DNA of 64,000 bases from Candidatus Delongbacteria bacterium (GTDB lineage Bacteria; UBA4055). A program made the position numbers and the translations under genes. Positions 6,646 to 45,753 of this stretch are shown here, one piece after another (the first letter of the stretch is position 1; each line of letters opens with the position of its first letter). The DNA is taken from the NCBI GenBank assembly GCA_003252515.1, contig QKDR01000159.1, forward strand, positions 4,811-68,810, written 5' to 3'. The notes below the pieces were generated by a model that did not search any database, was not told the DNA's origin, and saw only the letters and a list, made by a program, of their open reading frames with translations.

Positions 6646-6664
6646 TCATCCTGAGGCTCTGACA

Positions 6665-7480
6665 ATGAATTTCGATCCTCTTCTAAAATATGATCCGGTA
6701 CTTCTGGCGCTTTTTGCTACATTATTCACTTACGGCGTGACTGCTCTGGGCTCTGGAATGGTTTTTTTCTTTAAAGCCATCAACAAGAAAGTACTTAATT
6801 CCATGCTCGGATTCGCAGCGGGCGTAATGATCGCGGCCAGCTTCTGGTCTCTTCTGAAACCGGCTATCGAGATGGCTGAATCGAACGGTACTCCATCCTG
6901 GATACCTGCGGCTGCCGGATTCCTTTCGGGCGGAGCATTTTTACTGCTGGTCGACAAACTTCTGCCTCACCTTCATCTGGGATTAAAGATCGATAAAGCT
7001 GAAGGTATAAAAACAGGCTGGCAGAGGAGCGTTCTTCTTGTACTTGCCATAACTTTACACAACATTCCCGAGGGACTGGCTGTCGGAGTAGCGTTCGGCG
7101 CTCTGGCTCATAATCCTGATCCGGGTATGCTTGCCGGCGCGATCGCTCTGGCAATAGGTATCGGACTTCAGAATTTTCCTGAAGGCGCTGCCGTGTCTAT
7201 TCCGCTGAGACGTGAAGGTTTTTCCAGGCTGAGAGCTTTCAATTACGGTCAGCTCTCAGGAATTGTCGAACCCGTCGCGGGAGTTCTCGGTGCTTATCTG
7301 GTGCTGACTGTCACACCGCTTCTACCCTACGCGCTTTCATTTGCAGCCGGAGCTATGATCTTCGTGGTCGTGGAAGAGCTTATTCCAGAGTCACAGACAG
7401 GCGAAGAATCCGATCTTTCCACTGTAGGAGCAATGCTCGGGTTCGCAACCATGATGATACTGGATGTCGCTCTTGGCTAA
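6665..7480 (+). CDS. ZIP family metal (Zn2+/Fe2+) transporter, ZupT/GufA-like
   Basis: Signature HNIPEGLAVGVAFG and GLQNFPEGAAV motifs in eight TM helices. The start moves to the ATG at 6665 (MNFDPLL...) because the ORF-track N-terminus (6527) overlaps the preceding gene. Confidence 0.8.
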   Translation: MNFDPLLKYDPVLLALFATLFTYGVTALGSGMVFFFKAINKKVLNSMLGFAAGVMIAASFWSLLKPAIEMAESNGTPSWIPAAAGFLSGGAFLLLVDKLLPHLHLGLKIDKAEGIKTGWQRSVLLVLAITLHNIPEGLAVGVAFGALAHNPDPGMLAGAIALAIGIGLQNFPEGAAVSIPLRREGFSRLRAFNYGQLSGIVEPVAGVLGAYLVLTVTPLLPYALSFAAGAMIFVVVEELIPESQTGEESDLSTVGAMLGFATMMILDVALG

Positions 7481-7592: not shown

Positions 7593-9008
7593 TTATTTTT
7601 TTCTGTAAATAATAAAAGAACCGAATTTGTCTGCCTCTTCGAATTCCTCAGAACTGTAAAATTTTTGCTCAGGATATGAAAACCCCTGCTTGTTTATCTC
7701 ACTTATATGCCCGGTATGGAAAACAACAAGCGATCCTGAAGGTATGATATTTTCAGTCTGATAATTTAGTCTCTTTACTCTCGAAGGTTCTTTATATCCG
7801 TCGATCAGGTCAATACTGTATTTCGTAAAATGATCAGTATAAATCTGTTTGTCGCAATTTGTTCTGATGAACTGTTCAAAACCTTCAATACTCTCCATGT
7901 CGAAATATTCCCTGAAATGTGCGGTCATAATTATTGAGAAAACGATATAAGCCGTCAGCGAGATCAGCATCCATTTCTTTTTCATCTCCGTAAAGAATTT
8001 TGTAGCTAATACCATCGCCGGCAGGAACAGAGGGAAAAGATACCATGTGAACCTGATCGGCATAGGATGATAAGAAGTAAGGGACATCGAAAAGAATAAA
8101 TATAAAATAAGAAGACCTGAGAACCAGTAAACGACGATCCTGTTCTTTCTGTACTTACGGTAGATCACAAGCTGAATTACAGCCAGAAGAGGTATGAACA
8201 GCATTGTTCTTCTCAGAAAAACCGCACTGATATTATCCGTCAGATCCCTGACAAAGCCTTTGGTAATAAAATCATTACTGCTGAAACCCGATAGAGAGTT
8301 CATAACTGTAAGCCTGTAAAAAAAATCTCCGTTGATCAATAAGTAGATCAGACCTTCAAGCACTATCCCTGTTCCAAGTACAGAAATAGAGATAAAGATA
8401 TATTTATTAAAAGTTCTTTTATAAAATAGCTGGTATACAAGAAGTCCCGTGAGCAGAATACCTGTATAAAACACATTGATCTTGAATAATACGGAAAGTC
8501 CGAACAAAAGTCCGCTTAAAGACGCATATAACCACTTCTTATCTCTGTCGGCTACAAATAACATCAGAATACCGGAATTGACCAGAACCGTTGAGAAAAG
8601 GTCAGTAAAAGCTATTGATGCAAAAAGTATCTCAGTAGGATAGAAAACTGTAAATAAAAGTACCAGAAGCGCTGTCATTTCTGATCTTGTGACAGTTTTA
8701 ACCAGCCTGTAGCTAAGGACCATGTTTATGACCGAAAATATCATCGGAAATACAGTTGTAGCTGTTTTATTCGTTCCGAAAAGAATAAAAGACAGAGATG
8801 TCAGCCAGGTCTGTCCTATTCTCACAAGACAGACCGGGTAACCCAGATAATCCGCTCCGAAGTTACCGTTGTAAAGAGTATAAGCAAGATAATCGTAATA
8901 AGCGTCATCCGAATAAACATGCCCGAAATAAAAGTAGAAACGCAGAAATATCCCAGCTGCCAGCAGAAGCATAACTGTAATTTTAGTTCTTTTATCATCC
9001 CAGATCAT
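7593..9008 (-). CDS. GT-C fold membrane glycosyltransferase (ArnT/PMT-like, GT39/GT83 family)
   Basis: Polytopic membrane protein with an Asp-rich first-loop motif (YSDDAYYDY), 10+ TM helices and a C-terminal soluble domain. RBS GGAGAC upstream of the ATG. Confidence 0.55.
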   Translation of the reverse strand: MIWDDKRTKITVMLLLAAGIFLRFYFYFGHVYSDDAYYDYLAYTLYNGNFGADYLGYPVCLVRIGQTWLTSLSFILFGTNKTATTVFPMIFSVINMVLSYRLVKTVTRSEMTALLVLLFTVFYPTEILFASIAFTDLFSTVLVNSGILMLFVADRDKKWLYASLSGLLFGLSVLFKINVFYTGILLTGLLVYQLFYKRTFNKYIFISISVLGTGIVLEGLIYLLINGDFFYRLTVMNSLSGFSSNDFITKGFVRDLTDNISAVFLRRTMLFIPLLAVIQLVIYRKYRKNRIVVYWFSGLLILYLFFSMSLTSYHPMPIRFTWYLFPLFLPAMVLATKFFTEMKKKWMLISLTAYIVFSIIMTAHFREYFDMESIEGFEQFIRTNCDKQIYTDHFTKYSIDLIDGYKEPSRVKRLNYQTENIIPSGSLVVFHTGHISEINKQGFSYPEQKFYSSEEFEEADKFGSFIIYRKK

Positions 9009-9203
9009 TTTGTCTCCGATTCTTCAAAAGGTAAAATACGCAATTAAAGCATGATTTACAAGCGCTTGAGCGTATTCTTTTTTATTTGACAATAGAATTT
9101 AAATTCATTAAATATAAATATCTGACATACGGGCCAAAATTATCTGTATATACAGTAAAAAAACGCCTCAGAGGCATATATCTTCCAAACCAGTGCCCAA
9201 ACG

Positions 9204-9237
9204 TTGCGGGTAAACGCCACAGAGGCGTTTATCCGCA
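9204..9237 (+). promoter_or_regulatory. Imperfect extended hairpin (tgcggg-taaacgcc/ggcgttta-tccgca) in the 5' leader of the KAP-TIR gene. It overlaps the second copy of a 15-bp direct repeat (aaacgccNcagaggc at 9161-9175 and 9212-9226)
   Basis: Read directly from the sequence. About 45 nt upstream of the ATG at 9279. Function unknown. Confidence 0.3.
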
Positions 9238-9278
9238 CGTTGTGTGACATGCTGTTTTTAAATAAATAAGGAAATATT

Positions 9279-11075
9279 ATGGCAAATAAAAAACAAAAAT
9301 CTTCACAACCTACATTAAATCTACTCAGTGATCAAGCAGTCGGAGAAGGTACACCTATTTCAGCTGATGGATTAGGGTTTCATATGTATTCAAATGTATT
9401 ATCAAGTGTAGCTATCGAGACTCCTGGGCCTTTTACAATCGGTGTTTTTGGTGAATGGGGAACAGGAAAAACTAGTTTGATGAGAATGGTAGAAGAAAAT
9501 CTATCAAAAGAGAAGAATATTATTACAGTATGGTTCAATGCTTGGAGATACGAAAGCGAAGAACAACCGATTGTACCATTAGTAGCAACGATTGTTAGAG
9601 AGATAGAGCGCAATAAGAATTTCATCCAGACATTAGAAGATGGAGGAAAAAGTTTACTTCGAGCCCTTAAAGCCGTTGCTTATGGATTTTCTGCTAAAAC
9701 AAAAGTTAAAGTTCCTGGATTTGCTGAAATAGAAGCATCTTTTGTAGCTAAAGATATGATTGATCGTTCTGAAAATATTGCACCTGACCCACTTCTTGAT
9801 AGAAGTATTTTTTTTGAAGCTTTTCAGCAATTATCTAGCGTTCGAATTCCAAAATCAACGCGTGTAGTAGTTTTGATAGATGATCTAGATCGTTGTTTCC
9901 CAGATAAAGCTATTGCATTACTTGAGAGTATTAAACTTGTTCTAGCCCAACCAGGTTTTATTTTTTTTCTTGGTGTTGCCAGAAAAGTAATTGAAGGCTA
10001 TCTACAGCACAGATATGAAATAGAATATGGTATTAATGGGTTCGAAGGATATGCATACCTCGACAAGATTATACAATTACCATTTCATATTCCTCCCCAT
10101 CGTAACAGAATGTCTACTTTCTGGGAGAATGTGATATCTCGATTGAATGCAGCAGACAGGAAAAGTTTTAGAGACTTAGTTCCAATCATAAACCTTGCAT
10201 CAGGTAGTAACCCTCGTTCGGCAGTGCGCTTTGTAAACAATCTTTTAGTAGACCGAGCTATATTTAAAACAACTGCTGGTGATTTAGCACTTAGTGAAAT
10301 GCCAATTGCTTTTTTTGCTATCTCAAGAAGTATCGAACAAAGATGGCCAACCATATTCTCTCTTCTATCTAGATCTGAAGAAATTTGCGAAAAAGTTGTA
10401 TCTTGGACATCCACACAATTACCAGATATAGATTCTATTGAGCAGCCAGAATTAAGAGAGGTCGCTGCTTTACTAAAAGCAGATCAAGAACTTAATGGAT
10501 TACTTGCATCTAACTATGGTAATCATTGGTTAAGTGAACATAATCGCAGAAATGCTACCATTGATTTTCTACAAGAAGAACGTTCAGAAGTTGAAGAAGT
10601 AGAAACCTATTCTCAGTCGATTTATTATGATATATTCCTTAGTTACAGTTTGGAAGATGAAAAAGCTGCTACTGAGATAAGTAATGTTCTAAAAAATATA
10701 TATGGTCTAAATGTTTTTGATATTAACAAGAGGAGTACATCTTTGCCTGTATCAATTCAATCCCTCGTTGAAACCTCAATAAATTCTTCCCAGATATTAG
10801 TTGCTTTGGTAGGAAAATCCTATAGTAACTCAAATGTATTTTATGAAATAGGTCTAGCTCTAGGGCGAAATAAAACTGTCATTCCATTAATTCTTCCAGA
10901 TGCTGAAATAGAATCTACATTACTAAACTTAGAACACCTCAAAATTAATGAAATTAATAAAGAATCTCTTTACCCAATTTATGAATCTTTCAAAAAGAGT
11001 CAGAGAGATCTTTTTAGTGAAATATCTAAAAATCTATTTAATAGATCAATGCAATTTAAAATTCCAAGAAAATAA
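9279..11075 (+). CDS. KAP-family P-loop NTPase fused to a C-terminal TIR domain (candidate anti-phage defence protein)
   Basis: KAP hallmarks: Walker A GEWGTGKTS (nt about 9448-9474), WFNAWRYE, and Walker B VVVLIDDLDRC (nt about 9867-9899). No TM insert. The TIR domain spans aa 449-560: YDIFLSYSLEDEKAA...SIQSLVETSINSSQILVALVGKSYSNSNVFYEIGLAL, with Glu in the position of the plant/bacterial TIR catalytic Glu. The gene's GC content and codon usage are visibly lower than its neighbours. RBS AAGGA. Confidence 0.8.
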   Translation: MANKKQKSSQPTLNLLSDQAVGEGTPISADGLGFHMYSNVLSSVAIETPGPFTIGVFGEWGTGKTSLMRMVEENLSKEKNIITVWFNAWRYESEEQPIVPLVATIVREIERNKNFIQTLEDGGKSLLRALKAVAYGFSAKTKVKVPGFAEIEASFVAKDMIDRSENIAPDPLLDRSIFFEAFQQLSSVRIPKSTRVVVLIDDLDRCFPDKAIALLESIKLVLAQPGFIFFLGVARKVIEGYLQHRYEIEYGINGFEGYAYLDKIIQLPFHIPPHRNRMSTFWENVISRLNAADRKSFRDLVPIINLASGSNPRSAVRFVNNLLVDRAIFKTTAGDLALSEMPIAFFAISRSIEQRWPTIFSLLSRSEEICEKVVSWTSTQLPDIDSIEQPELREVAALLKADQELNGLLASNYGNHWLSEHNRRNATIDFLQEERSEVEEVETYSQSIYYDIFLSYSLEDEKAATEISNVLKNIYGLNVFDINKRSTSLPVSIQSLVETSINSSQILVALVGKSYSNSNVFYEIGLALGRNKTVIPLILPDAEIESTLLNLEHLKINEINKESLYPIYESFKKSQRDLFSEISKNLFNRSMQFKIPRK

Positions 11076-11362
11076 TCTTGATAAAATAGTCAAATAAAAT
11101 GAGAACATCAGAGAATTCAAAGTGCAAATATATATCCTCTTGATACTAATGATTATTTAAAACAGCACGAACTCACAACATTGGCAAAAGAGAAATGCGC
11201 GGGGAAATTATTTGCACTCCTTTTTACCATGACCGTTAGCTTGAATAGAAATTACAAGGAATGCTATTTCCGGTCATCTAAGGTCCGAATACCTGTTCCT
11301 ATTCTGTCAAGAACTATAATCCTCTATATCTAATACTTAAATCTTTTAGTCGTAGCTGGAAA

Positions 11363-12541
11363 CTAATTGATTTGATATTTCTTTCTCATCTCAGATTCAT
11401 AGCCGAAATATCTGTTCCTTATCCCGTCCAGTTCATCAACGGAAGTTGAATCAAAATCAAAGCTGTACTTAAGTCTGAGACCGAGTTCCGAATTACTGAA
11501 TCTGATAAAATTCTTAAGGCTGTTACCTTTCTGGTAATACCTGAGTATCTGAAGTATCCTGAGCCCGTCTATCTTTTCGTGGCAGGCGCGGATAAATAAT
11601 TTTTCCGTCTTGAAATTATTTCTCAGAGGTTCCCATATGTTTTTTCCGAACGCTTCATATAAATATCCGTCTACAGGAGTCTCAACATCGCGCCTGAACA
11701 GCTCAGGAAGCAGCCTGTAAGTTTCACCTATCCGACTGAAAGCTTCAATGTCATAGAACGGATAGCTTTCCCAGTCACCGGACATACCTTTCGACACTGC
11801 GGGTCCCGTTCCGAACGGCACTCTGTCGGATTCGCGCGCTGAAGGATAAACTGCTTCTTCGTTCCAGACCATGATATCACCGGCTTTTTTCATTCTGTTC
11901 ACGAAGTAGAAATCCTCGCCGGCCTGCTTCGGGGTTATACCGCTGATCTTCCTGTATCCGCCGATCCTGAAAGAAATAGCTGACCCCATAGCCGTAAAAG
12001 CATAAGGAGAATAGACTTTCATAAGGTTCAGCAGGTAGTACCTCATGTAAAGTTCATACCTCAGTATCGCCCGGTCAACGCTTTCATTCCCGATGAGTTC
12101 ATGGTAGTACGGATTTGCAAGAAGAAGCGTTTTTTTATTCTTCCTGAATATATCACGAACAGATTCGATGTAACCTCTTCTGATCCTCGTATCGGCATCA
12201 AGACTTATTACGATATCGTCATCGTCCGATTCACTGTTTATCGCTTCAAAAAGTACCTTTCTCGCATAACCGACACCGCGCCGCTTTCCTTTCCATCCAT
12301 TTCCTTCCGACGCTCTGTCTGTCAGAGTTATGTTCAAGTCCCTGATGTTTTTTATGTATTCTATTGTTTCCAGATTATTTTCGCACAGTTTCTTTTTTAC
12401 AGGATCGTTCCACCACTCATCGGGATTGTTAACGCAAATATAAATCCTGAAGTCCTGAAATGACTGCGCTCCCAGATCTCCGATAAGCCCCTGAATGTGA
12501 TCATTCTCGTTCAGAGCAGGTATTGCTACGAAAACATTCAA
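11363..12541 (-). CDS. Glycosyltransferase family 2 (GT-A fold) protein
   Basis: VAIPALNENDHI at the N-terminus and a DADT (DxD-like) motif, typical of the GT2 core. TTG start. Confidence 0.7.
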   Translation of the reverse strand: MNVFVAIPALNENDHIQGLIGDLGAQSFQDFRIYICVNNPDEWWNDPVKKKLCENNLETIEYIKNIRDLNITLTDRASEGNGWKGKRRGVGYARKVLFEAINSESDDDDIVISLDADTRIRRGYIESVRDIFRKNKKTLLLANPYYHELIGNESVDRAILRYELYMRYYLLNLMKVYSPYAFTAMGSAISFRIGGYRKISGITPKQAGEDFYFVNRMKKAGDIMVWNEEAVYPSARESDRVPFGTGPAVSKGMSGDWESYPFYDIEAFSRIGETYRLLPELFRRDVETPVDGYLYEAFGKNIWEPLRNNFKTEKLFIRACHEKIDGLRILQILRYYQKGNSLKNFIRFSNSELGLRLKYSFDFDSTSVDELDGIRNRYFGYESEMRKKYQIN

Positions 12542-21502: not shown

Positions 21503-22690
21503 TTACATTCTGAACGCATCGTCTAATCCGACACATTTCAGCGATATCTCCGGATATGTTTCTGTAAAGGATCTGTACTTGGATATTGAAAAAGCAGCCG
21601 GATCGAATTTGGCTTCATAGGCATAGCTATTCCCGTTATCGTCTTTCGCAATAAAATCAACTTCCTTTCCATCACGGGTCCGCCAGAATCTGAGATTATC
21701 AGAGCCGTATCTTTCTTTTAATAGAAGATAAATATAATTTTCGAATAATTCGCCTTTATCCGGACGGTTTCCGATCGGACTGAAATCATTGGTCAGAGCA
21801 TTCCTGAGGCCAAGATCGGCGAAATATAATTTGGACATTTTCCTCAATTCCGAGATCAGATTGTTATGAAACGGAGGAAGAAGATGTATGTGAAAAGATT
21901 TACGCATGACCCAGATATACTGGGCAACAGTTTTATTGTCTAGACCTGCATCAGGAGCAAGACTGTTCGTGTTGAGAAGCCCGCCCGTTCCAAACGCAAG
22001 CATTTTTAACAGATTCAAATATTTATCGTGATAGGACAAGTTACTTTCAACGGCATCTTTTTTCGCATATGAATCTGCAATTTCCTTAAGAACGCGTTTT
22101 TTCTCTTTATCCGTACCACTCAGCACGACTTCGGGATAACCTCCGTATATAAGGTATTCGTAAAAATGTTCTTTGATTCTGTCCATATAAAGAAGCGGTA
22201 TATTTCCATTGTTTAGATGTGGGGCCAGATCATCTTCTCCTTTGAATATCAGTACTTCCTTTAAAGACATAGCAGGAAGTTCATAAATCCGTTTTCTCCC
22301 TGCAAGAGAATCTCTAAATTTGCGGTCGATGTAGAAACTTGATGAGCCTGTTACTATGAACTTGATTTTATCCAGATATGTATCGTAATGATATTTAAGG
22401 AAATTCGACGGATCATTTAGATACTGAACCTCGTCAATAAGAACATATCTTCTTTCCGTATCCGCAGGTTTCGCTATAAGCTGAAGAAGGTTTTTCGGAT
22501 TATCGTCGAGCATACGGAGGATTTCTTTATCTTCCAGCGTCAGATAAAAAACTGATATATTTTTGTTCTTCAGACCGGAAAATATCTGCTTCAGGATTGT
22601 AGTCTTCCCCGTTTGTCTTGCTCCGATGATCAGAGAAATGTATTTCGTTTCCAAATCTTTTTCTATTTCATTTTTAAGCTGTCGTTCCAA
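21503..22690 (-). CDS. AAA_14/DUF4143 family ATP-binding protein
   Basis: Walker A GARQTGKTT and Walker B VLIDEVQ. The C-terminal half matches DUF4143-type proteins. Confidence 0.7.
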   Translation of the reverse strand: MERQLKNEIEKDLETKYISLIIGARQTGKTTILKQIFSGLKNKNISVFYLTLEDKEILRMLDDNPKNLLQLIAKPADTERRYVLIDEVQYLNDPSNFLKYHYDTYLDKIKFIVTGSSSFYIDRKFRDSLAGRKRIYELPAMSLKEVLIFKGEDDLAPHLNNGNIPLLYMDRIKEHFYEYLIYGGYPEVVLSGTDKEKKRVLKEIADSYAKKDAVESNLSYHDKYLNLLKMLAFGTGGLLNTNSLAPDAGLDNKTVAQYIWVMRKSFHIHLLPPFHNNLISELRKMSKLYFADLGLRNALTNDFSPIGNRPDKGELFENYIYLLLKERYGSDNLRFWRTRDGKEVDFIAKDDNGNSYAYEAKFDPAAFSISKYRSFTETYPEISLKCVGLDDAFRM

Positions 22691-41991: not shown

Positions 41992-44900
41992 TTGGAAACC
42001 GAAGAAATAAAGAACATCGATAATAAATACAGAGTTATCCGGAAGCTTGGCAAAGGCGGATCGAGCACTGTATATCTGGTCGAGGATTACAACGGCAACA
42101 AACTCGCTCTCAAACTTCTTAACAGGCACTCGACTCAGAAGAAGATACAGAGACTGAAGAACGAATTCAGGCTCATGTGCGCGTTAAACCATAAAAATAT
42201 AGCTAAAGTGTTCGATTTCGGATATGATCCGGATCTCGGAAATTATTATTTCACTCTGGAATATATACCGGACGGTAATTTCATTACTTTCAACCAGATC
42301 TTTAACTCAAAGGAGATGAAGCTCGAATCTTTTTATCAGCTTCTGAGCGGTCTCAGTTACCTGCACTCCAATAATTTCATTCATTACGATATTTCTCCAA
42401 ATAACGTTCTGATAAAAAAAGAGTTCGACGGTTTTACCGTCAAGATCACGGACTTCGGTCTGACGACCCAGTTCGATACGCCGAACTACAACTATGCCGG
42501 CACTTTGAACTACATGTCCCCGGAAATGATCAGGGGACTTACTACTATAGATTCGAGAAGCGATCTTTTTTCCGCAGGGCTTATACTGGCTAACCTTCTT
42601 AATTCCGAATTCGTTTACACACCGTCCTCAACTATCCACGAGTTCTTCGATAAAAGAATTAAGTTCGACGAGACCATCATTCTCGAAAAAATAAATAAGA
42701 TAGATGATCCGGATTTCAAGAAATTCCTGCGAAAACTTCTGGAAGTTGAACCCGTAGGCAGATACGCTTCTGCTAACGACACGATACAGGCAATGAATCA
42801 GATCTTCAGGAAAGAATACGATATTATAGCTTCATACAGTACTAAATCAACTTTTTCCGACACCACGATCTTCAGAGAGAATGAGTACAGGACAATACTG
42901 TCGATATTCAATTCCTCGAAAGAAAAAACAGGTAAAAGAAATTTCATTGTCATCAGCGGTGAATCGGGCTCGGGCAAAAAGAAACTCGTCGACGAGTTCA
43001 AGATCCAGTGCCAGCTGACGAACCATGAGATTTACAAAATAAATTTTCTCGAAAAACCTGAAAGTAATAATCTGGAACCACTTAAAAATCTGATCATGTC
43101 AATAGGTAAAATTATCAGGAACGGGAATCCCGATACCAAGATACTGGACAGATTATTTTACGGAGCGGAAAATATAAAAGACAATGACATACAGGATATT
43201 TTTCCCGTAGTTGAAAAATTCGTTAAGGACGTTTCTCCCGGTAATATGCTCATCGTGGCTCTCAACAATATAGAATACGCGGATAAATTCTCTCTGGATT
43301 TCATAAATCTGTTGCTCAATAAATTTTACAGGAATCTTAACATATTCATAGTAATTTCCGTAAATCCGAGAAAAATAAAGGATAACAGAAAAGTCCTTCA
43401 CAGCATTCTCAACGCGCCGAACGATATGAGGTCCGTAATAACCATACCGAACCTGAACCTCGAGCAGATCAGAAAAATAGTCAACACGTACTTTTTCAAC
43501 CTTAAAGACGCTCCCGAATTCTTTTACACAAAACTCCAGAACGTTACAGGCAACAGTATCAGAAGGCTGATAGATATTCTTAAAATGCTGTACTCGAACA
43601 ATATAATTATCAGGACTTACAGCGGTTATTCTTATAAAACATCTACAAAATTCGAGGATATGCTCAATGATTTTATAAAAAATGAGATAATTTTCGCGCC
43701 CAGATTACTTTCTCCGGAAGAATTCTCGGTACTTAAAGCGCTGTGCGTATCTCTTGTGCCGCTCTCGATCGAACAGATCACCGGAATTACGGATATTCCC
43801 GGATCTCAGGTTAGAGAGATCATTGATAAGCTCTATGAGGATTATTTCATAAGAACACAGGGTGAGAATGCTAATTTATATTCGATCACAGAAGATATTC
43901 TCAAAAGAATGGTGATCACTTCTTCAGGCGAAAATGAGATCAAGCATTATCACAGAAGGATATCATCGCTTGTATTTACCGATCTTAACATGCAGGATAC
44001 TACACGCAGGCTTTACAGGTTCGTACATATACTGGCCGGTCACAAGAACATTGATATTGATATGATGAATAAAATAGAAGTGGTGAAGAAAGGCCTTCTT
44101 AAGAACAGAGACATAACGAACCTGATAGAACTTTATCAGACACTTATATACAAGGTCGCTATCAACGACAGGCTCAAACTCAAACTTCTGTATGAAGTGA
44201 TATTTCTCATTTTTAAAAATCTCGTTCCCGAAAGCAATCAGCATTTTATTGAAGAGTACAGAAGTATTCTGTCAAGATACGATCATCCCGAAGAATTTTC
44301 ATTTGAAACAGACGCGGTGAATCTTATTGATCTGAATTTCGCGGAAAACTTTGATGAGGGTATCCTGATAATTGGCAGGCTTAGACCGTTCCTTGATGAC
44401 AAGAGCATGAGAAGGACCGTCGTGGAACTTATGGTCTATGTCATGCATCAGTCCTTTAATCACAGGAACGAATATCTTTACCTTGATGAACTTATCGAAT
44501 ATACTTCCGGCTCACTTTTCTGCAGAACAGTGAATCAGTATCTGATGATGTACGACCTTTATAACAGGAAAAATGAAGATTTTAAAAATGAACCGAAGAA
44601 ATTCGAGCAGCTCCTGTTCGAAGCTTTCAAGAACCTTAGAAATTCGGACGACAAAGTGTATGCGGCAAGAGCGTATCTTATAATGGGGTTCTATTATGAA
44701 AAGCTCGAATATTCCGATGAAGTGGAGAGGTTCTTCAATACCGCGATAGAATTTTTTCACGAGAACAGATTCCCTGTCTTCATTTTTTTTACAAGAAACG
44801 CTTATTCAACATATCTTGAAAAACATAATATGTTCAGAAAAGCCGTTGACGAAGCTAATAAAGCTTTTGTTTTCGATGTCAACTACAGCTTCCTGTTCAG

Positions 44901-45753
44901 CATCATCGATCTTATCGAACACAGATCCCAGTTAAGAATAAAACTTGAAGACCCGATACAGGAGATCATAAATGATCTGGTAATGCTCATTAATATAAAA
45001 ACAGGTGTTAAAAGCAGTATCGGCAAGGTGTATCAGAACATAATCAATCTGTATTTTGAAGCCGGAAAGTTCAACGACATGATGGAATATCTTACTTCGT
45101 ACATTATCTCCATGAACAACCGCAGGCGCGGCGAAGATACTGAAAGCCTTTCTTTCTATATCAGATCTTTCCTGAAGAACTATACTATAAACGAGATATT
45201 CGATTACACCAAGCAGTATTTTGCCGAAATGAACATCTCCGAAGACAGATTCCTTGATCTTGTATACTCTGTCAGAGAGGAAATGCAGAACGAGAAAGAA
45301 ACAACTCCCGACACTCTTTCCAATGACATTCTTATTAACGTGATAGACCGTCTCACTGACGACAAATCCGTTGACATTGACGGAATATATAAACTGATGG
45401 AGAATTACGACAAGAACGCGCCGCTGTTCAACAGAGCGAACCTTTTCATGGCCCTGCACTTTAATAATGATTATTCGAACACGCTTAATCAGCTTTATCA
45501 GGACATTGTGCTGCTCTACGGCAAAGGTTATTCGAACATGGCTCAGAAATATTCGACCGCTCTTGCGAAATACGTGTTCTATAAAAAACAGGACAACAAC
45601 GGATTTTTATCGTTCACCAAACTGTCGATGAAGATCAACGGCGAGATATTCCTTAATTCTCCTGACAACATCAAGAACGCCATTATGAAAAATCCCGACA
45701 TTAAACTGCTTAAAGATATAATCAGCAATCTCAAAATGAGATTTCAGAAATAA
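41992..45753 (+). CDS. Ser/Thr protein kinase fused to an AAA/STAND-like ATPase domain and a long TPR-like helical C-terminal region
   Basis: Kinase G-loop LGKGGSSTVY, catalytic HYDISPNNVLI, DFG, and SPE. Walker A ISGESGSGKKK around aa 320. C-terminal 700 aa helical repeats. TTG start. Confidence 0.75.
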   Translation: METEEIKNIDNKYRVIRKLGKGGSSTVYLVEDYNGNKLALKLLNRHSTQKKIQRLKNEFRLMCALNHKNIAKVFDFGYDPDLGNYYFTLEYIPDGNFITFNQIFNSKEMKLESFYQLLSGLSYLHSNNFIHYDISPNNVLIKKEFDGFTVKITDFGLTTQFDTPNYNYAGTLNYMSPEMIRGLTTIDSRSDLFSAGLILANLLNSEFVYTPSSTIHEFFDKRIKFDETIILEKINKIDDPDFKKFLRKLLEVEPVGRYASANDTIQAMNQIFRKEYDIIASYSTKSTFSDTTIFRENEYRTILSIFNSSKEKTGKRNFIVISGESGSGKKKLVDEFKIQCQLTNHEIYKINFLEKPESNNLEPLKNLIMSIGKIIRNGNPDTKILDRLFYGAENIKDNDIQDIFPVVEKFVKDVSPGNMLIVALNNIEYADKFSLDFINLLLNKFYRNLNIFIVISVNPRKIKDNRKVLHSILNAPNDMRSVITIPNLNLEQIRKIVNTYFFNLKDAPEFFYTKLQNVTGNSIRRLIDILKMLYSNNIIIRTYSGYSYKTSTKFEDMLNDFIKNEIIFAPRLLSPEEFSVLKALCVSLVPLSIEQITGITDIPGSQVREIIDKLYEDYFIRTQGENANLYSITEDILKRMVITSSGENEIKHYHRRISSLVFTDLNMQDTTRRLYRFVHILAGHKNIDIDMMNKIEVVKKGLLKNRDITNLIELYQTLIYKVAINDRLKLKLLYEVIFLIFKNLVPESNQHFIEEYRSILSRYDHPEEFSFETDAVNLIDLNFAENFDEGILIIGRLRPFLDDKSMRRTVVELMVYVMHQSFNHRNEYLYLDELIEYTSGSLFCRTVNQYLMMYDLYNRKNEDFKNEPKKFEQLLFEAFKNLRNSDDKVYAARAYLIMGFYYEKLEYSDEVERFFNTAIEFFHENRFPVFIFFTRNAYSTYLEKHNMFRKAVDEANKAFVFDVNYSFLFSIIDLIEHRSQLRIKLEDPIQEIINDLVMLINIKTGVKSSIGKVYQNIINLYFEAGKFNDMMEYLTSYIISMNNRRRGEDTESLSFYIRSFLKNYTINEIFDYTKQYFAEMNISEDRFLDLVYSVREEMQNEKETTPDTLSNDILINVIDRLTDDKSVDIDGIYKLMENYDKNAPLFNRANLFMALHFNNDYSNTLNQLYQDIVLLYGKGYSNMAQKYSTALAKYVFYKKQDNNGFLSFTKLSMKINGEIFLNSPDNIKNAIMKNPDIKLLKDIISNLKMRFQK

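What the first reader, a model, noticed from the sequence alone, without database searches (positions are those of the whole stretch)
9279..11075. Soluble KAP P-loop NTPase fused to a catalytically plausible TIR domain: candidate one-protein NAD+-depleting anti-phage system
The N-terminal 440 aa carry the KAP NTPase hallmarks (GEWGTGKTS, WFNAWRYE, hhhhDDLDRC), but lack the TM-helix insert found in many KAP NTPases, so the protein should be cytosolic. The C-terminal 115 aa align by eye to the canonical TIR pattern (YDIFLSYS.ED...S.SQILVALVGKSYSNSNVFYEIGLAL). Its Glu sits at the position of the plant/bacterial TIR catalytic glutamate in the S..WC..EL motif. Architecturally this is a sensor NTPase plus a TIR NADase effector. 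Such soluble KAP-TIR fusions are, to my knowledge, not among experimentally characterised defence systems, so this is worth testing as a novel Abi-type module.
Basis: partly seen in the sequence, partly recalled or inferred. Interest (0 to 1): 0.85.

Follow-up and report, generated by a model that had tools for sequence, protein, structure and literature searches.

The report
Inserted soluble KAP NTPase–TIR gene
This is an intact, horizontally inserted gene for a membrane-free KAP ATPase fused to a TIR domain that keeps its catalytic glutamate; it is a plausible but untested single-protein immune or cell-suicide module from a widespread family that nobody has yet characterised.

Summary

The gene is a foreign single-gene insertion. 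Its GC3 is 0.19 against 0.41-0.53 in neighbours. Six syntenic metagenome contigs have the two flanking glycosyltransferase genes about 80 bp apart, against 2354 bp here.

The family is large: at least 99 90%-identity clusters carry KAP plus TIR. It is phylogenetically patchy, has no conserved partner gene, and often sits next to integrases, toxin-antitoxin genes, a prophage or Lamassu. In sister clades the C-terminal slot holds FGE-sulfatase, LRR or pentapeptide domains instead.

Best reading (about 0.55): a stand-alone conflict protein in which NTP-dependent assembly of the KAP module switches on TIR NAD+ cleavage.

Caveats: nothing is tested, the Trp four residues before the Glu is missing, the TIR is much less conserved than the KAP core, and the sensor is unknown. 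I rate it a new variant of known kinds, of moderate interest.

The parts
9279..11075 (+). KAP NTPase-TIR gene, 598 aa plus stop codon
   Evidence: ORF list. Pfam KAP_NTPase plus TIR_2. Full-length homologues at 63-69% identity.
9269..9272 (+). Shine-Dalgarno-like AGGA, 6 nt before the ATG
   Evidence: Read directly from the sequence.
9399..10253 (+). KAP P-loop NTPase domain (aa 41-325)
9450..9476 (+). Walker A GEWGTGKTS (aa 58-66)
   Evidence: Invariant or nearly invariant in 36 homologues. Position.
9555..9860 (+). Soluble helical insert between Walker A and Walker B (aa 93-194), in the place where many KAP NTPases carry TM helices. It includes the highly conserved but low-confidence stretch aa 141-170.
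   Evidence: No hydrophobic segment. pLDDT below 50 at aa 142-170. Column conservation 0.88 for aa 141-160.
9867..9896 (+). Walker B VVLIDDLDRC (aa 197-206)
   Evidence: D201, L203, D204 and C206 invariant; D202 and R205 nearly invariant.
10269..10586 (+). All-helical domain after the NTPase core (aa 331-436)
   Evidence: AF2 helices 343-443. 40% mean pairwise identity. Shared with KAP relatives that carry other C-termini.
10623..10958 (+). TIR domain (aa 449-560)
10845..10847 (+). Codon GAA for Glu523, the candidate catalytic glutamate in the first turn of helix alpha-C
   Evidence: Aligns with the Glu of Roq1, BtpA, 7uxr and TIR-STING. Glu in 97 of 123 family TIR tails. Helix 520-529.
9009..11362 (.). 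Inserted segment: the 2354-bp gap between the PMT_2 and GT2 genes. It holds only the KAP-TIR gene and its AT-rich flanks.
   Evidence: The same two genes are about 80-87 bp apart in six syntenic contigs, L092, L094, L095, L097, L098 and L099. Gene GC 0.34 and GC3 0.19 against 0.41-0.53 in neighbours.
7593..9008 (-). Flanking gene: PMT_2-type glycosyltransferase (host gene, not part of the module)
   Evidence: Pfam. Synteny.
11363..12541 (-). Flanking gene: family-2 glycosyltransferase (host gene, not part of the module)
   Evidence: Pfam. Synteny.

Best explanation
The gene encodes a stand-alone, cytosolic immune or conflict protein that was acquired horizontally as a single-gene cassette. The N-terminal KAP P-loop NTPase, together with its helical domain, is the switch and probably the sensor. 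On a trigger (phage or other invader, identity unknown) it binds or hydrolyses NTP and assembles into a ring or higher-order oligomer, as the structurally related RdrA does. That assembly brings the C-terminal TIR domains together so that Glu523-dependent NAD+ cleavage is switched on. Because no partner effector is encoded alongside, the likely output is direct NAD+ depletion leading to growth arrest or death of the infected cell. Shown here: the domain architecture, the absence of a TM segment, the fold, the position of the Glu, the insertion, the family distribution and the lack of a partner gene. Inferred: oligomerisation, NADase activity, the trigger and the phenotype.
Against: There are no experimental data for any KAP-TIR protein. 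In this window the neighbours are housekeeping genes, not a defence island. The census of homologue neighbourhoods has no background control, and only a minority of loci carry recognised defence genes. The TIR is the least conserved part of the protein (31% pairwise identity against 67-76% for the NTPase core). The Trp at -4 from the Glu, present in the four aligned solved TIR sequences, is Asn here and is Trp in only 30 of 123 family members. Some close relatives have Gln or Leu at the Glu position. In sister clades the same slot holds binding-type domains (FGE-sulfatase, LRR), so the slot is not necessarily an 'effector' slot. The one KAP fusion examined experimentally was not abortive. No sensor domain can be pointed to.
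Confidence: 0.55

Rival explanations
1. The TIR domain makes a signalling nucleotide (a cADPR isomer or His-ADPR type, as Thoeris ThsB does) that activates an effector encoded elsewhere in the genome, rather than depleting NAD+ itself.
For: There are weak, sub-threshold similarities to ThsB-type TIRs: PF08937 at 17.6-20.1 bits against a cut-off of 21.2, and PADLOC ThsB at E about 3e-4 to 1e-3. The catalytic Glu is retained.
Against: No conserved neighbour of any kind was found among 140 flanking ORFs of 24 loci (about 22 with a TIR by the family profile), and no ThsA-like family (SIR2, Macro or SLOG) was among the 25 most frequent neighbour families listed. The gene moved into this genome alone. 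A signal producer without a co-transferred receiver would be useless after transfer.
Confidence: 0.1
2. The TIR in this member, or in its subclade, is catalytically weak or dead. It would then serve as an oligomerisation or adaptor module, or as a ligand-binding regulator, with the KAP NTPase itself being the active principle.
For: The Trp at -4 is replaced by Asn519. The closest homologue, P0002, has Gln at the Glu position, and P0011 has Leu. The TIR_2 score is modest, and the precomputed annotation marks the hit 'faint' or 'weak' for P0004, P0002 and P0049. The TIR part has GC 0.28 and the lowest conservation of any domain. Sister clades carry non-enzymatic binding domains in the same slot. 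KAP fusions with non-TIR C-termini do defend against phage.
Against: E523, D451, S455 and D460 are all retained in this protein. Glu is kept in about 80% of the family. The fold is modelled at pLDDT around 90, with rmsd 1.9 A to the SARM1 TIR.
Confidence: 0.17
3. The protein is a conflict module with another role rather than an anti-phage one. Options include plasmid or mobile-element exclusion or addiction, or regulated cell death in filamentous or multicellular bacteria. The gene in this MAG could even be a silent passenger.
For: The TIR-bearing genome loci come largely from Actinomycetota, with single loci from Leptolyngbya, Thermodesulfobacteriota, Hydrogenedentes and Rhodospirillales. The Aravind group links such NTPase systems to multicellular habit (PMC7159879, PMC8195603). 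Several homologues sit inside integrative elements. According to the authors of PMC13552941, others have noted that phage restriction is probably not the primary function of the KAP protein PifA.
Against: The same features (patchy distribution, mobile contexts, module swapping) are those of anti-phage genes. Lamassu and toxin-antitoxin neighbours point to anti-phage islands. The ORF is intact, has a good ribosome-binding site and shows no sign of decay.
Confidence: 0.15

Closest known systems
KAP P-loop NTPase fusion anti-phage proteins (EF_KAP and three metagenomic KAP fusions; PLoS Biol 2026, PMC13552941)
   Same: A single polypeptide with an N-terminal KAP NTPase and a variable C-terminal region. 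Walker B and the C-terminal region are both needed for defence. The modular C-terminus matches what I see in this clade.
   Different: EF_KAP is modelled with two TM helices, one of them inside the NTPase domain. The C-terminal regions of all four tested proteins have no known domain or structural similarity. EF_KAP is reported as non-abortive. The window protein has no TM segment and carries a recognisable TIR domain.
RADAR ATPase RdrA (PDB 8hr8, 8hra, 8fnt, 8fnu)
   Different: No sequence-level match to RdrA models in PADLOC. No RdrB adenosine deaminase partner. RdrA is about 800-850 aa and has no TIR.
TIR-bearing STAND/NLR-like defence proteins (TIR-Avs, bNACHT-TIR, plant TNLs such as Roq1); recalled from my own knowledge of these families
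   Same: The logic is the same: a P-loop NTPase switch oligomerises and thereby activates a fused TIR NADase. The Glu aligns with Roq1 Glu86.
   Different: The NTPase belongs to a different clade: KAP rather than NACHT, NB-ARC or other STAND types. STAND-type Pfam hits are below threshold (NPHP3_N 19.9 against 24.8; nSTAND_NTPase5 12.9 against 34). The TIR is C-terminal rather than N-terminal, and there is no repeat-type sensor domain.
PifA (F plasmid), QatA (QatABCD) and the PADLOC candidate PDC-S20
   Same: All share the KAP NTPase core: PADLOC QatA 2.8e-34, PDC-S20 1.8e-32, PifA 1.8e-27. tblastn against plasmids finds KAP-domain genes, several annotated QatA, at 22-31% identity.
   Different: The matches cover only the N-terminal 250-290 aa. 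NCBIfam QatA scores 133 bits against a cut-off of 600. There are no QatBCD neighbours. None of these proteins has a TIR.
TIR NADase effectors activated by assembly (SARM1, TIR-STING, TIR-SAVED/Cap12, SPARTA TIR-APAZ, Thoeris ThsB, Cat1)
   Different: The activating module here is a KAP NTPase rather than a cyclic-nucleotide sensor, an Argonaute or ARM/SAM domains. The Trp at -4 from the Glu is absent.

Membership tests
KAP family P-loop NTPase (Pfam PF07693) | Match to the family HMM above the gathering threshold | tested here: met
   130.5 bits against a cut-off of 20, aa 41-325 on profile positions 12-289 of 293.
KAP family P-loop NTPase (Pfam PF07693) | Walker A GxxGxGK[ST] and Walker B hhhhDDLDR motifs | tested here: met
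   GEWGTGKTS at aa 58-66 and VVLIDDLDRC at aa 197-206, invariant or nearly invariant in 36 homologues.
KAP family P-loop NTPase (Pfam PF07693) | Transmembrane helices inserted between Walker A and Walker B (typical of many members, not obligatory) | tested here: not met
   The maximum Kyte-Doolittle 19-residue score is 1.64, and it lies outside the insert. The insert, aa 93-194, is polar and helical. This defines a soluble sub-clade rather than excluding membership.
TIR domain (Pfam PF13676 TIR_2) | Match to the family HMM above the gathering threshold | tested here: met
   42.4 bits against a cut-off of 28, aa 452-548.
TIR domain (Pfam PF13676 TIR_2) | Flavodoxin-like TIR fold | tested here: met
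Enzymatic (NADase-type) TIR | Catalytic Glu at the start of helix alpha-C | tested here: met
   E523 aligns with the Glu of Roq1, BtpA, 7uxr and TIR-STING. It lies in helix 520-529. Glu in 97 of 123 family members.
Enzymatic (NADase-type) TIR | Aromatic Trp four residues before the Glu (common in NADase TIRs, not universal) | tested here: not met
   The residue is N519 in this protein. Trp occurs in 30 of 123 family members.
Enzymatic (NADase-type) TIR | Measured NAD+ cleavage | not testable with these tools
   Needs biochemistry.
Qat system ATPase QatA | Equivalog-level HMM score, and QatB, QatC and QatD neighbours | tested here: not met
   NCBIfam NF041923 scores 132.9 bits against a cut-off of 600. 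The neighbours are glycosyltransferases.
Thoeris (ThsB plus ThsA) | ThsB-type TIR above threshold, and an adjacent ThsA effector | tested here: not met
   PF08937 scores 17.6-20.1 against a cut-off of 21.2. There is no ThsA-like gene in the window neighbourhood, and none appears among the 25 most frequent neighbour families of the 24 surveyed loci.
STAND / NLR-like TIR proteins (Avs, bNACHT) | NACHT, NB-ARC or other STAND NTPase domain | tested here: not met
   Only sub-threshold hits: NPHP3_N 19.9 against 24.8, nSTAND_NTPase5 12.9 against 34. KAP is the significant NTPase family.
RADAR (RdrA plus RdrB) | Sequence match to RdrA, and an adjacent RdrB deaminase | tested here: not met
   No RdrA model among the PADLOC hits at E up to 10. 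No deaminase neighbour. The only link is structural similarity.
Anti-phage defence gene (generic) | Enrichment next to known defence or mobile genes | tested here: inconclusive
   Mobile or defence neighbours occur in about 8 of 26 homologue loci: integrases, VapE, IS elements, toxin-antitoxin genes, a prophage, Cas2, Lamassu, SIR2-like. There is no background control, and the window locus itself sits in housekeeping context.
Anti-phage defence gene (generic) | Protection against phage on expression | not testable with these tools
   Needs experiment.

The most novel reading that the evidence does not exclude
Soluble KAP-TIR proteins form a distinct, still uncharacterised class of single-protein immune sensors. 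In this class an RdrA-like, ring-forming KAP ATPase, rather than a STAND NTPase or a cyclic-nucleotide receptor, licenses TIR NADase activity. The sensing element would be the hyper-conserved, structurally unresolved insert at aa 141-170, which replaces the transmembrane hairpin of classical KAP NTPases. Because that insert is 72% identical across phyla, it would be guarding a conserved host process or recognising a conserved invader feature, rather than taking part in a binding arms race.
Probability: 0.3. Interest if true: 0.65.

Novelty: new variant of a known kind. Interest (0 to 1): 0.5.

Why it matters
TIR NADases are activated by forced assembly. The known bacterial activators are STAND NTPases, cyclic-nucleotide sensors (STING, SAVED), Argonautes and CRISPR signalling. 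KAP NTPases were proposed as immunity proteins twenty years ago but were only shown to defend against phage in 2025-2026, and then only for fusions, one of them modelled with TM helices, whose C-termini have no known domain. A KAP-TIR protein has a readable output (NAD+ loss) and clear point-mutant controls (K64A, E523A). It would therefore be a tractable model for how a KAP NTPase senses and signals, and would add a further NTPase route to TIR activation. The clean single-gene insertion seen here shows that the module is self-contained and transferable. That is also what a heterologous test needs.

Tried and rejected
- **Single-sequence PDB searches.** phmmer against PDB sequences found nothing for the TIR tail and only a P-loop fragment for the KAP part. 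A family profile was needed.
- **Source contig.** Exact look-ups of the window protein gave no contig record.
- **Insertion scars.** There is no tRNA in the window. Near the gene there is no integrase or transposase. The flanking repeats are short and AT-rich at chance level, for example the 14-nt inverted pair 9080-9093 / 11086-11099. The mechanism of insertion is therefore unknown.
- **Small partner ORFs.** The two intergenic flanks hold only unconvincing ORFs of 25-53 aa.
- **Promoters and terminators.** The scan gave fewer promoter-like sites than shuffles, and one minus-strand terminator-like hairpin at 9163-9177.
- **Plasmids and phages.** tblastn found no full-length KAP-TIR, only KAP domains at 21-31% identity.
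- **Families considered and rejected.** QatA, PifA, Thoeris, STAND-TIR and RADAR all fail a defining feature (see the membership test).
- **Literature.** All ten searches found no paper with 'KAP-TIR', with PF07693 plus PF13676, or with PDC-S20. The 2004 KAP family paper is not held.
- I did not use the second structure job or the third fold search, because residue-level coordinates are not returned and nothing further could be decided with them.
Full report
**Observation**

Window 9279-11075 (+) is a single intact ORF of 598 aa. It starts at ATG, with an AGGA 6 nt upstream.
- Walker A GEWGTGKTS, aa 58-66
- WFNAWRYE, aa 85-92
- Walker B DDLDRC, aa 201-206
- YDIFLSYS, aa 450-457
- YEIGLAL, aa 522-528

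Pfam places KAP_NTPase on aa 41-325 (E 9.8e-38, 130.5 bits, cut-off 20). It places TIR_2 on aa 452-548 (E 1.1e-10, 42.4 bits, cut-off 28). PADLOC and NCBIfam match only the KAP half. The hits are QatA, PDC-S20 and PifA, and NCBIfam QatA scores 133 bits against a cut-off of 600. The protein is therefore a relative of those families, not a member.

No transmembrane segment is predicted. The best 19-residue Kyte-Doolittle window scores 1.64 and covers the helix and strand just after Walker B. The Walker A to Walker B insert (aa 93-194) is polar.

**TIR active site**

A profile of 23 family TIR tails hits solved TIR domains strongly:
- TIR-STING 6wt6, E 7e-15
- 7uxr, 5e-13
- Roq1, 8e-13
- BtpA 4lzp, 1e-12
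- AbTIR 7uwg and 8g83
- TcpB
- Cat1
- RUN1
- SARM1

In the printed alignments the family Glu pairs with the second Glu of Roq1 'WCLEEL' (chain residue 86). It also pairs with the equivalent Glu of BtpA, 7uxr and TIR-STING. In the window protein this residue is E523 (codon GAA, 10845-10847).

Across 123 KAP-TIR tails the column is Glu in 97. About six more have Glu one column earlier. D451, S455 and D460 are also well kept.

Two cautions apply:
- The Trp four residues before the Glu, present in the four aligned solved TIR sequences, is Asn519 here and is Trp in only 30 of 123 family members.
- Close relatives P0002 and P0011 carry Gln and Leu at the Glu position.

**Structure**

An AlphaFold2 model built on 36 homologues has mean pLDDT 82.8 and pTM 0.61. 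Low-confidence stretches are aa 142-170, the linker 437-446 and the BB-loop 486-488.

Foldseek ranks the heptameric RdrA rings first (E 5e-6). E523 lies in the first turn of helix 520-529, after strand 504-511, which is the position expected for helix alpha-C.

**Family**

The protein database returns 922 relatives. Of the best 120 clusters at 90% identity, 99 carry KAP plus TIR_2 at about 570 aa and 44-69% identity. They come from Actinomycetota, Cyanobacteria, Chloroflexota, Zixibacteria, KSB1, Thermodesulfobacteriota and others. JGI already names some 'KAP family P-loop domain/TIR domain'.

The exhaustive representative search finds 745 clusters at 50% identity with E at or below 1e-30. About 18 of the best 150 align into the TIR.

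Conservation is very uneven:

| Region | Mean pairwise identity |
|---|---|
| P-loop core | 0.76 |
| Walker B core | 0.67 |
| Insert aa 93-194 | 0.63 |
| Helical domain | 0.40 |
| TIR | 0.31 |

The stretch aa 141-160 (TKVKVPGFAEIEASFVAKDM) is among the most conserved of all, at 0.88, although the model cannot place it. It sits where classical KAP NTPases have their membrane hairpin.

In 77 species-level genome loci of this soluble KAP clade, the C-terminal slot is occupied as follows:
- TIR_2: 23
- FGE-sulfatase: 21
- LRR: about 5
- pentapeptide repeats: 2
- L7/L12 C-terminal domain: 2
- FtsK-gamma, MgtE_N, NACHT, HEAT: 1 each

This kind of module swapping on a constant NTPase chassis is what the Aravind group describes for NTP-dependent conflict systems, with TIR and FGS among the 'effector' modules (PMC7159879). 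They also report KAP ATPases displacing STAND NTPases in such systems (PMC8195603).

**Genomic context in the window**

The gene lies alone on the + strand between two minus-strand glycosyltransferase genes, PMT_2 (7593-9008) and GT2 (11363-12541). The surrounding region is housekeeping: TrkA/TrkH, a GNAT acetyltransferase, a ZIP transporter, PKD and Endonuclease I proteins, and further out aldolase, ArgRS, RRF, BamA and TamB.

It is a compositional outlier. Its GC is 0.34 and its GC3 is 0.19, against GC3 of 0.41-0.53 in most neighbours. The TIR part has GC of only 0.28.

The decisive evidence is an empty site. Metagenome contigs carry GT2 orthologues at 65-71% identity. In six of them (L092, L094, L095, L097, L098, L099) GT2 is followed after about 80-87 bp by the PMT_2 orthologue. 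In L094, L095 and L099, which extend far enough, GNAT and TrkH follow in the same order as here. In the window the two genes are 2354 bp apart, and the gap holds only this gene.

The gene therefore arrived as a self-contained cassette of about 2.3 kb. No integrase, tRNA or convincing terminal repeat marks the event.

**Context of homologues**

There is no conserved partner. Among 140 flanking ORFs of 24 loci (about 22 with a TIR by the family profile), the commonest Pfam family occurs three times.

Individual loci look like this:
- Leptolyngbya: a prophage-like block with Bro-N, HTH, a tail protein and MazG
- Acaryochloris: VapE, an integrase and IS1
- Solwaraspora: an integrase-bounded island
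- Anaerolineales: PIN, HicB, HigB and PemK toxin-antitoxin genes plus IS110
- Actinosynnema: three integrases and Cas2
- Actinokineospora: a Lamassu LmuA/LmuB pair 428 bp downstream (E 1e-165 and 4e-216)
- Amycolatopsis: SIR2-like and radical-SAM genes directly downstream
- Zixibacteria: housekeeping neighbours
- P0002, the closest homologue: neighbours mostly without any Pfam hit

This is the behaviour of a mobile conflict gene. I have no background control, so enrichment is not proven. No full-length KAP-TIR occurs in the plasmid or phage collections.

**Mechanism**

The best-supported reading is a one-protein switch plus effector.
1. The KAP NTPase, whose catalytic motifs are invariant, senses a trigger.
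2. It assembles in an NTP-dependent way, by analogy with ring-forming RdrA and with Cdc6/Orc-type ATPases.
3. That assembly clusters the C-terminal TIR domains so that composite active sites form and NAD+ is cleaved through E523.
4. With no partner gene to receive a signal, direct NAD+ depletion is the likeliest output.

Steps 1 to 4 are inference. The architecture, fold, residue positions, mobility and autonomy are shown.

The main rivals are:
- a Thoeris-like signal producer, disfavoured by the lack of any linked receiver
- a catalytically weak TIR acting as scaffold or regulator, supported by the missing Trp, the low conservation and the non-enzymatic domains in the same slot of sister clades
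- a conflict role other than phage defence

**Comparison with known systems and novelty**

The protein works like the TIR-bearing NTPase immune proteins (TIR-Avs, bNACHT, plant TNLs) and like the KAP-fusion defence proteins reported in PLoS Biology 2026. In those, Walker B and the C-terminal region are both required. EF_KAP is modelled with TM helices and was not abortive, and the C-termini of all the tested proteins have no known domain (PMC13552941).

It is a member of the KAP and TIR domain families. It fails defining features of QatA, PifA, Thoeris, STAND-TIR and RADAR.

I found no paper that tests, or even names, a KAP-TIR protein in the held library. The combination is already annotated in databases and is numerous. 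I therefore rate it a new variant of known kinds. It is a good experimental candidate with clean controls, but its logic would not surprise a specialist.

Noticed in passing
window 21503-22690 (-): A 395-aa AAA_14 plus DUF4143 ATPase that matches the PADLOC defence candidate PDC-S01 at E 4e-97. It lies about 10 kb from the KAP-TIR gene and is the only other defence-candidate hit of note in the window.
   Followed up: partly
window 41992-45753 (+): A 1253-aa protein with an N-terminal Ser/Thr kinase domain. It hits the PD-T4-6, mad6, MkoA and Stk2 models through the kinase domain only. The remaining 950 or so residues were not examined.
   Followed up: no
window 6662-7480 (+): The ZIP zinc-transporter gene (GC 0.50) is absent between the PMT_2 and GNAT orthologues in syntenic contigs L094, L095 and L099. 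It is therefore a second lineage-specific insertion, next to the KAP-TIR one.
   Followed up: partly
window 9699-9788 (aa 141-170 of the protein): The stretch TKVKVPGFAEIEASFVAKDMIDRSENIAPD is one of the most conserved parts of the family (0.88 column conservation for aa 141-160), yet AlphaFold gives pLDDT below 50. It occupies the place of the TM hairpin of classical KAP NTPases and is a candidate latch, interface or sensor.
   Followed up: partly
window 9161-9237: Two adjacent hairpins lie upstream of the gene: 9161-9180 / 9211-9230 and 9205-9218 / 9224-9237. One of them scores as a minus-strand terminator-like site. Their role is unknown.
   Followed up: no
loci L039-L072 and others (genome contigs): Twenty-one of 77 relatives of the same soluble KAP core carry a C-terminal FGE-sulfatase (formylglycine-generating-enzyme-like, C-type-lectin fold) domain instead of a TIR. 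Others carry LRR, pentapeptide, L7/L12 C-terminal, FtsK-gamma, MgtE_N, NACHT or HEAT domains.
   Followed up: partly
L026 12123-16456 (Actinokineospora fastidiosa); L023 11804-14869 (Amycolatopsis sp.): In L026 a complete Lamassu pair LmuA/LmuB lies 428 bp downstream of the KAP-TIR gene. In L023 SIR2-like and radical-SAM genes lie directly downstream of it.
   Followed up: partly
L035 (Methanospirillum purgamenti chromosome) 9989-11680: An archaeal member of the soluble KAP clade, about 43% identical over aa 12-484. Its short C-terminal tail looks TIR-like by eye but was not recovered by the family TIR profile.
   Followed up: no
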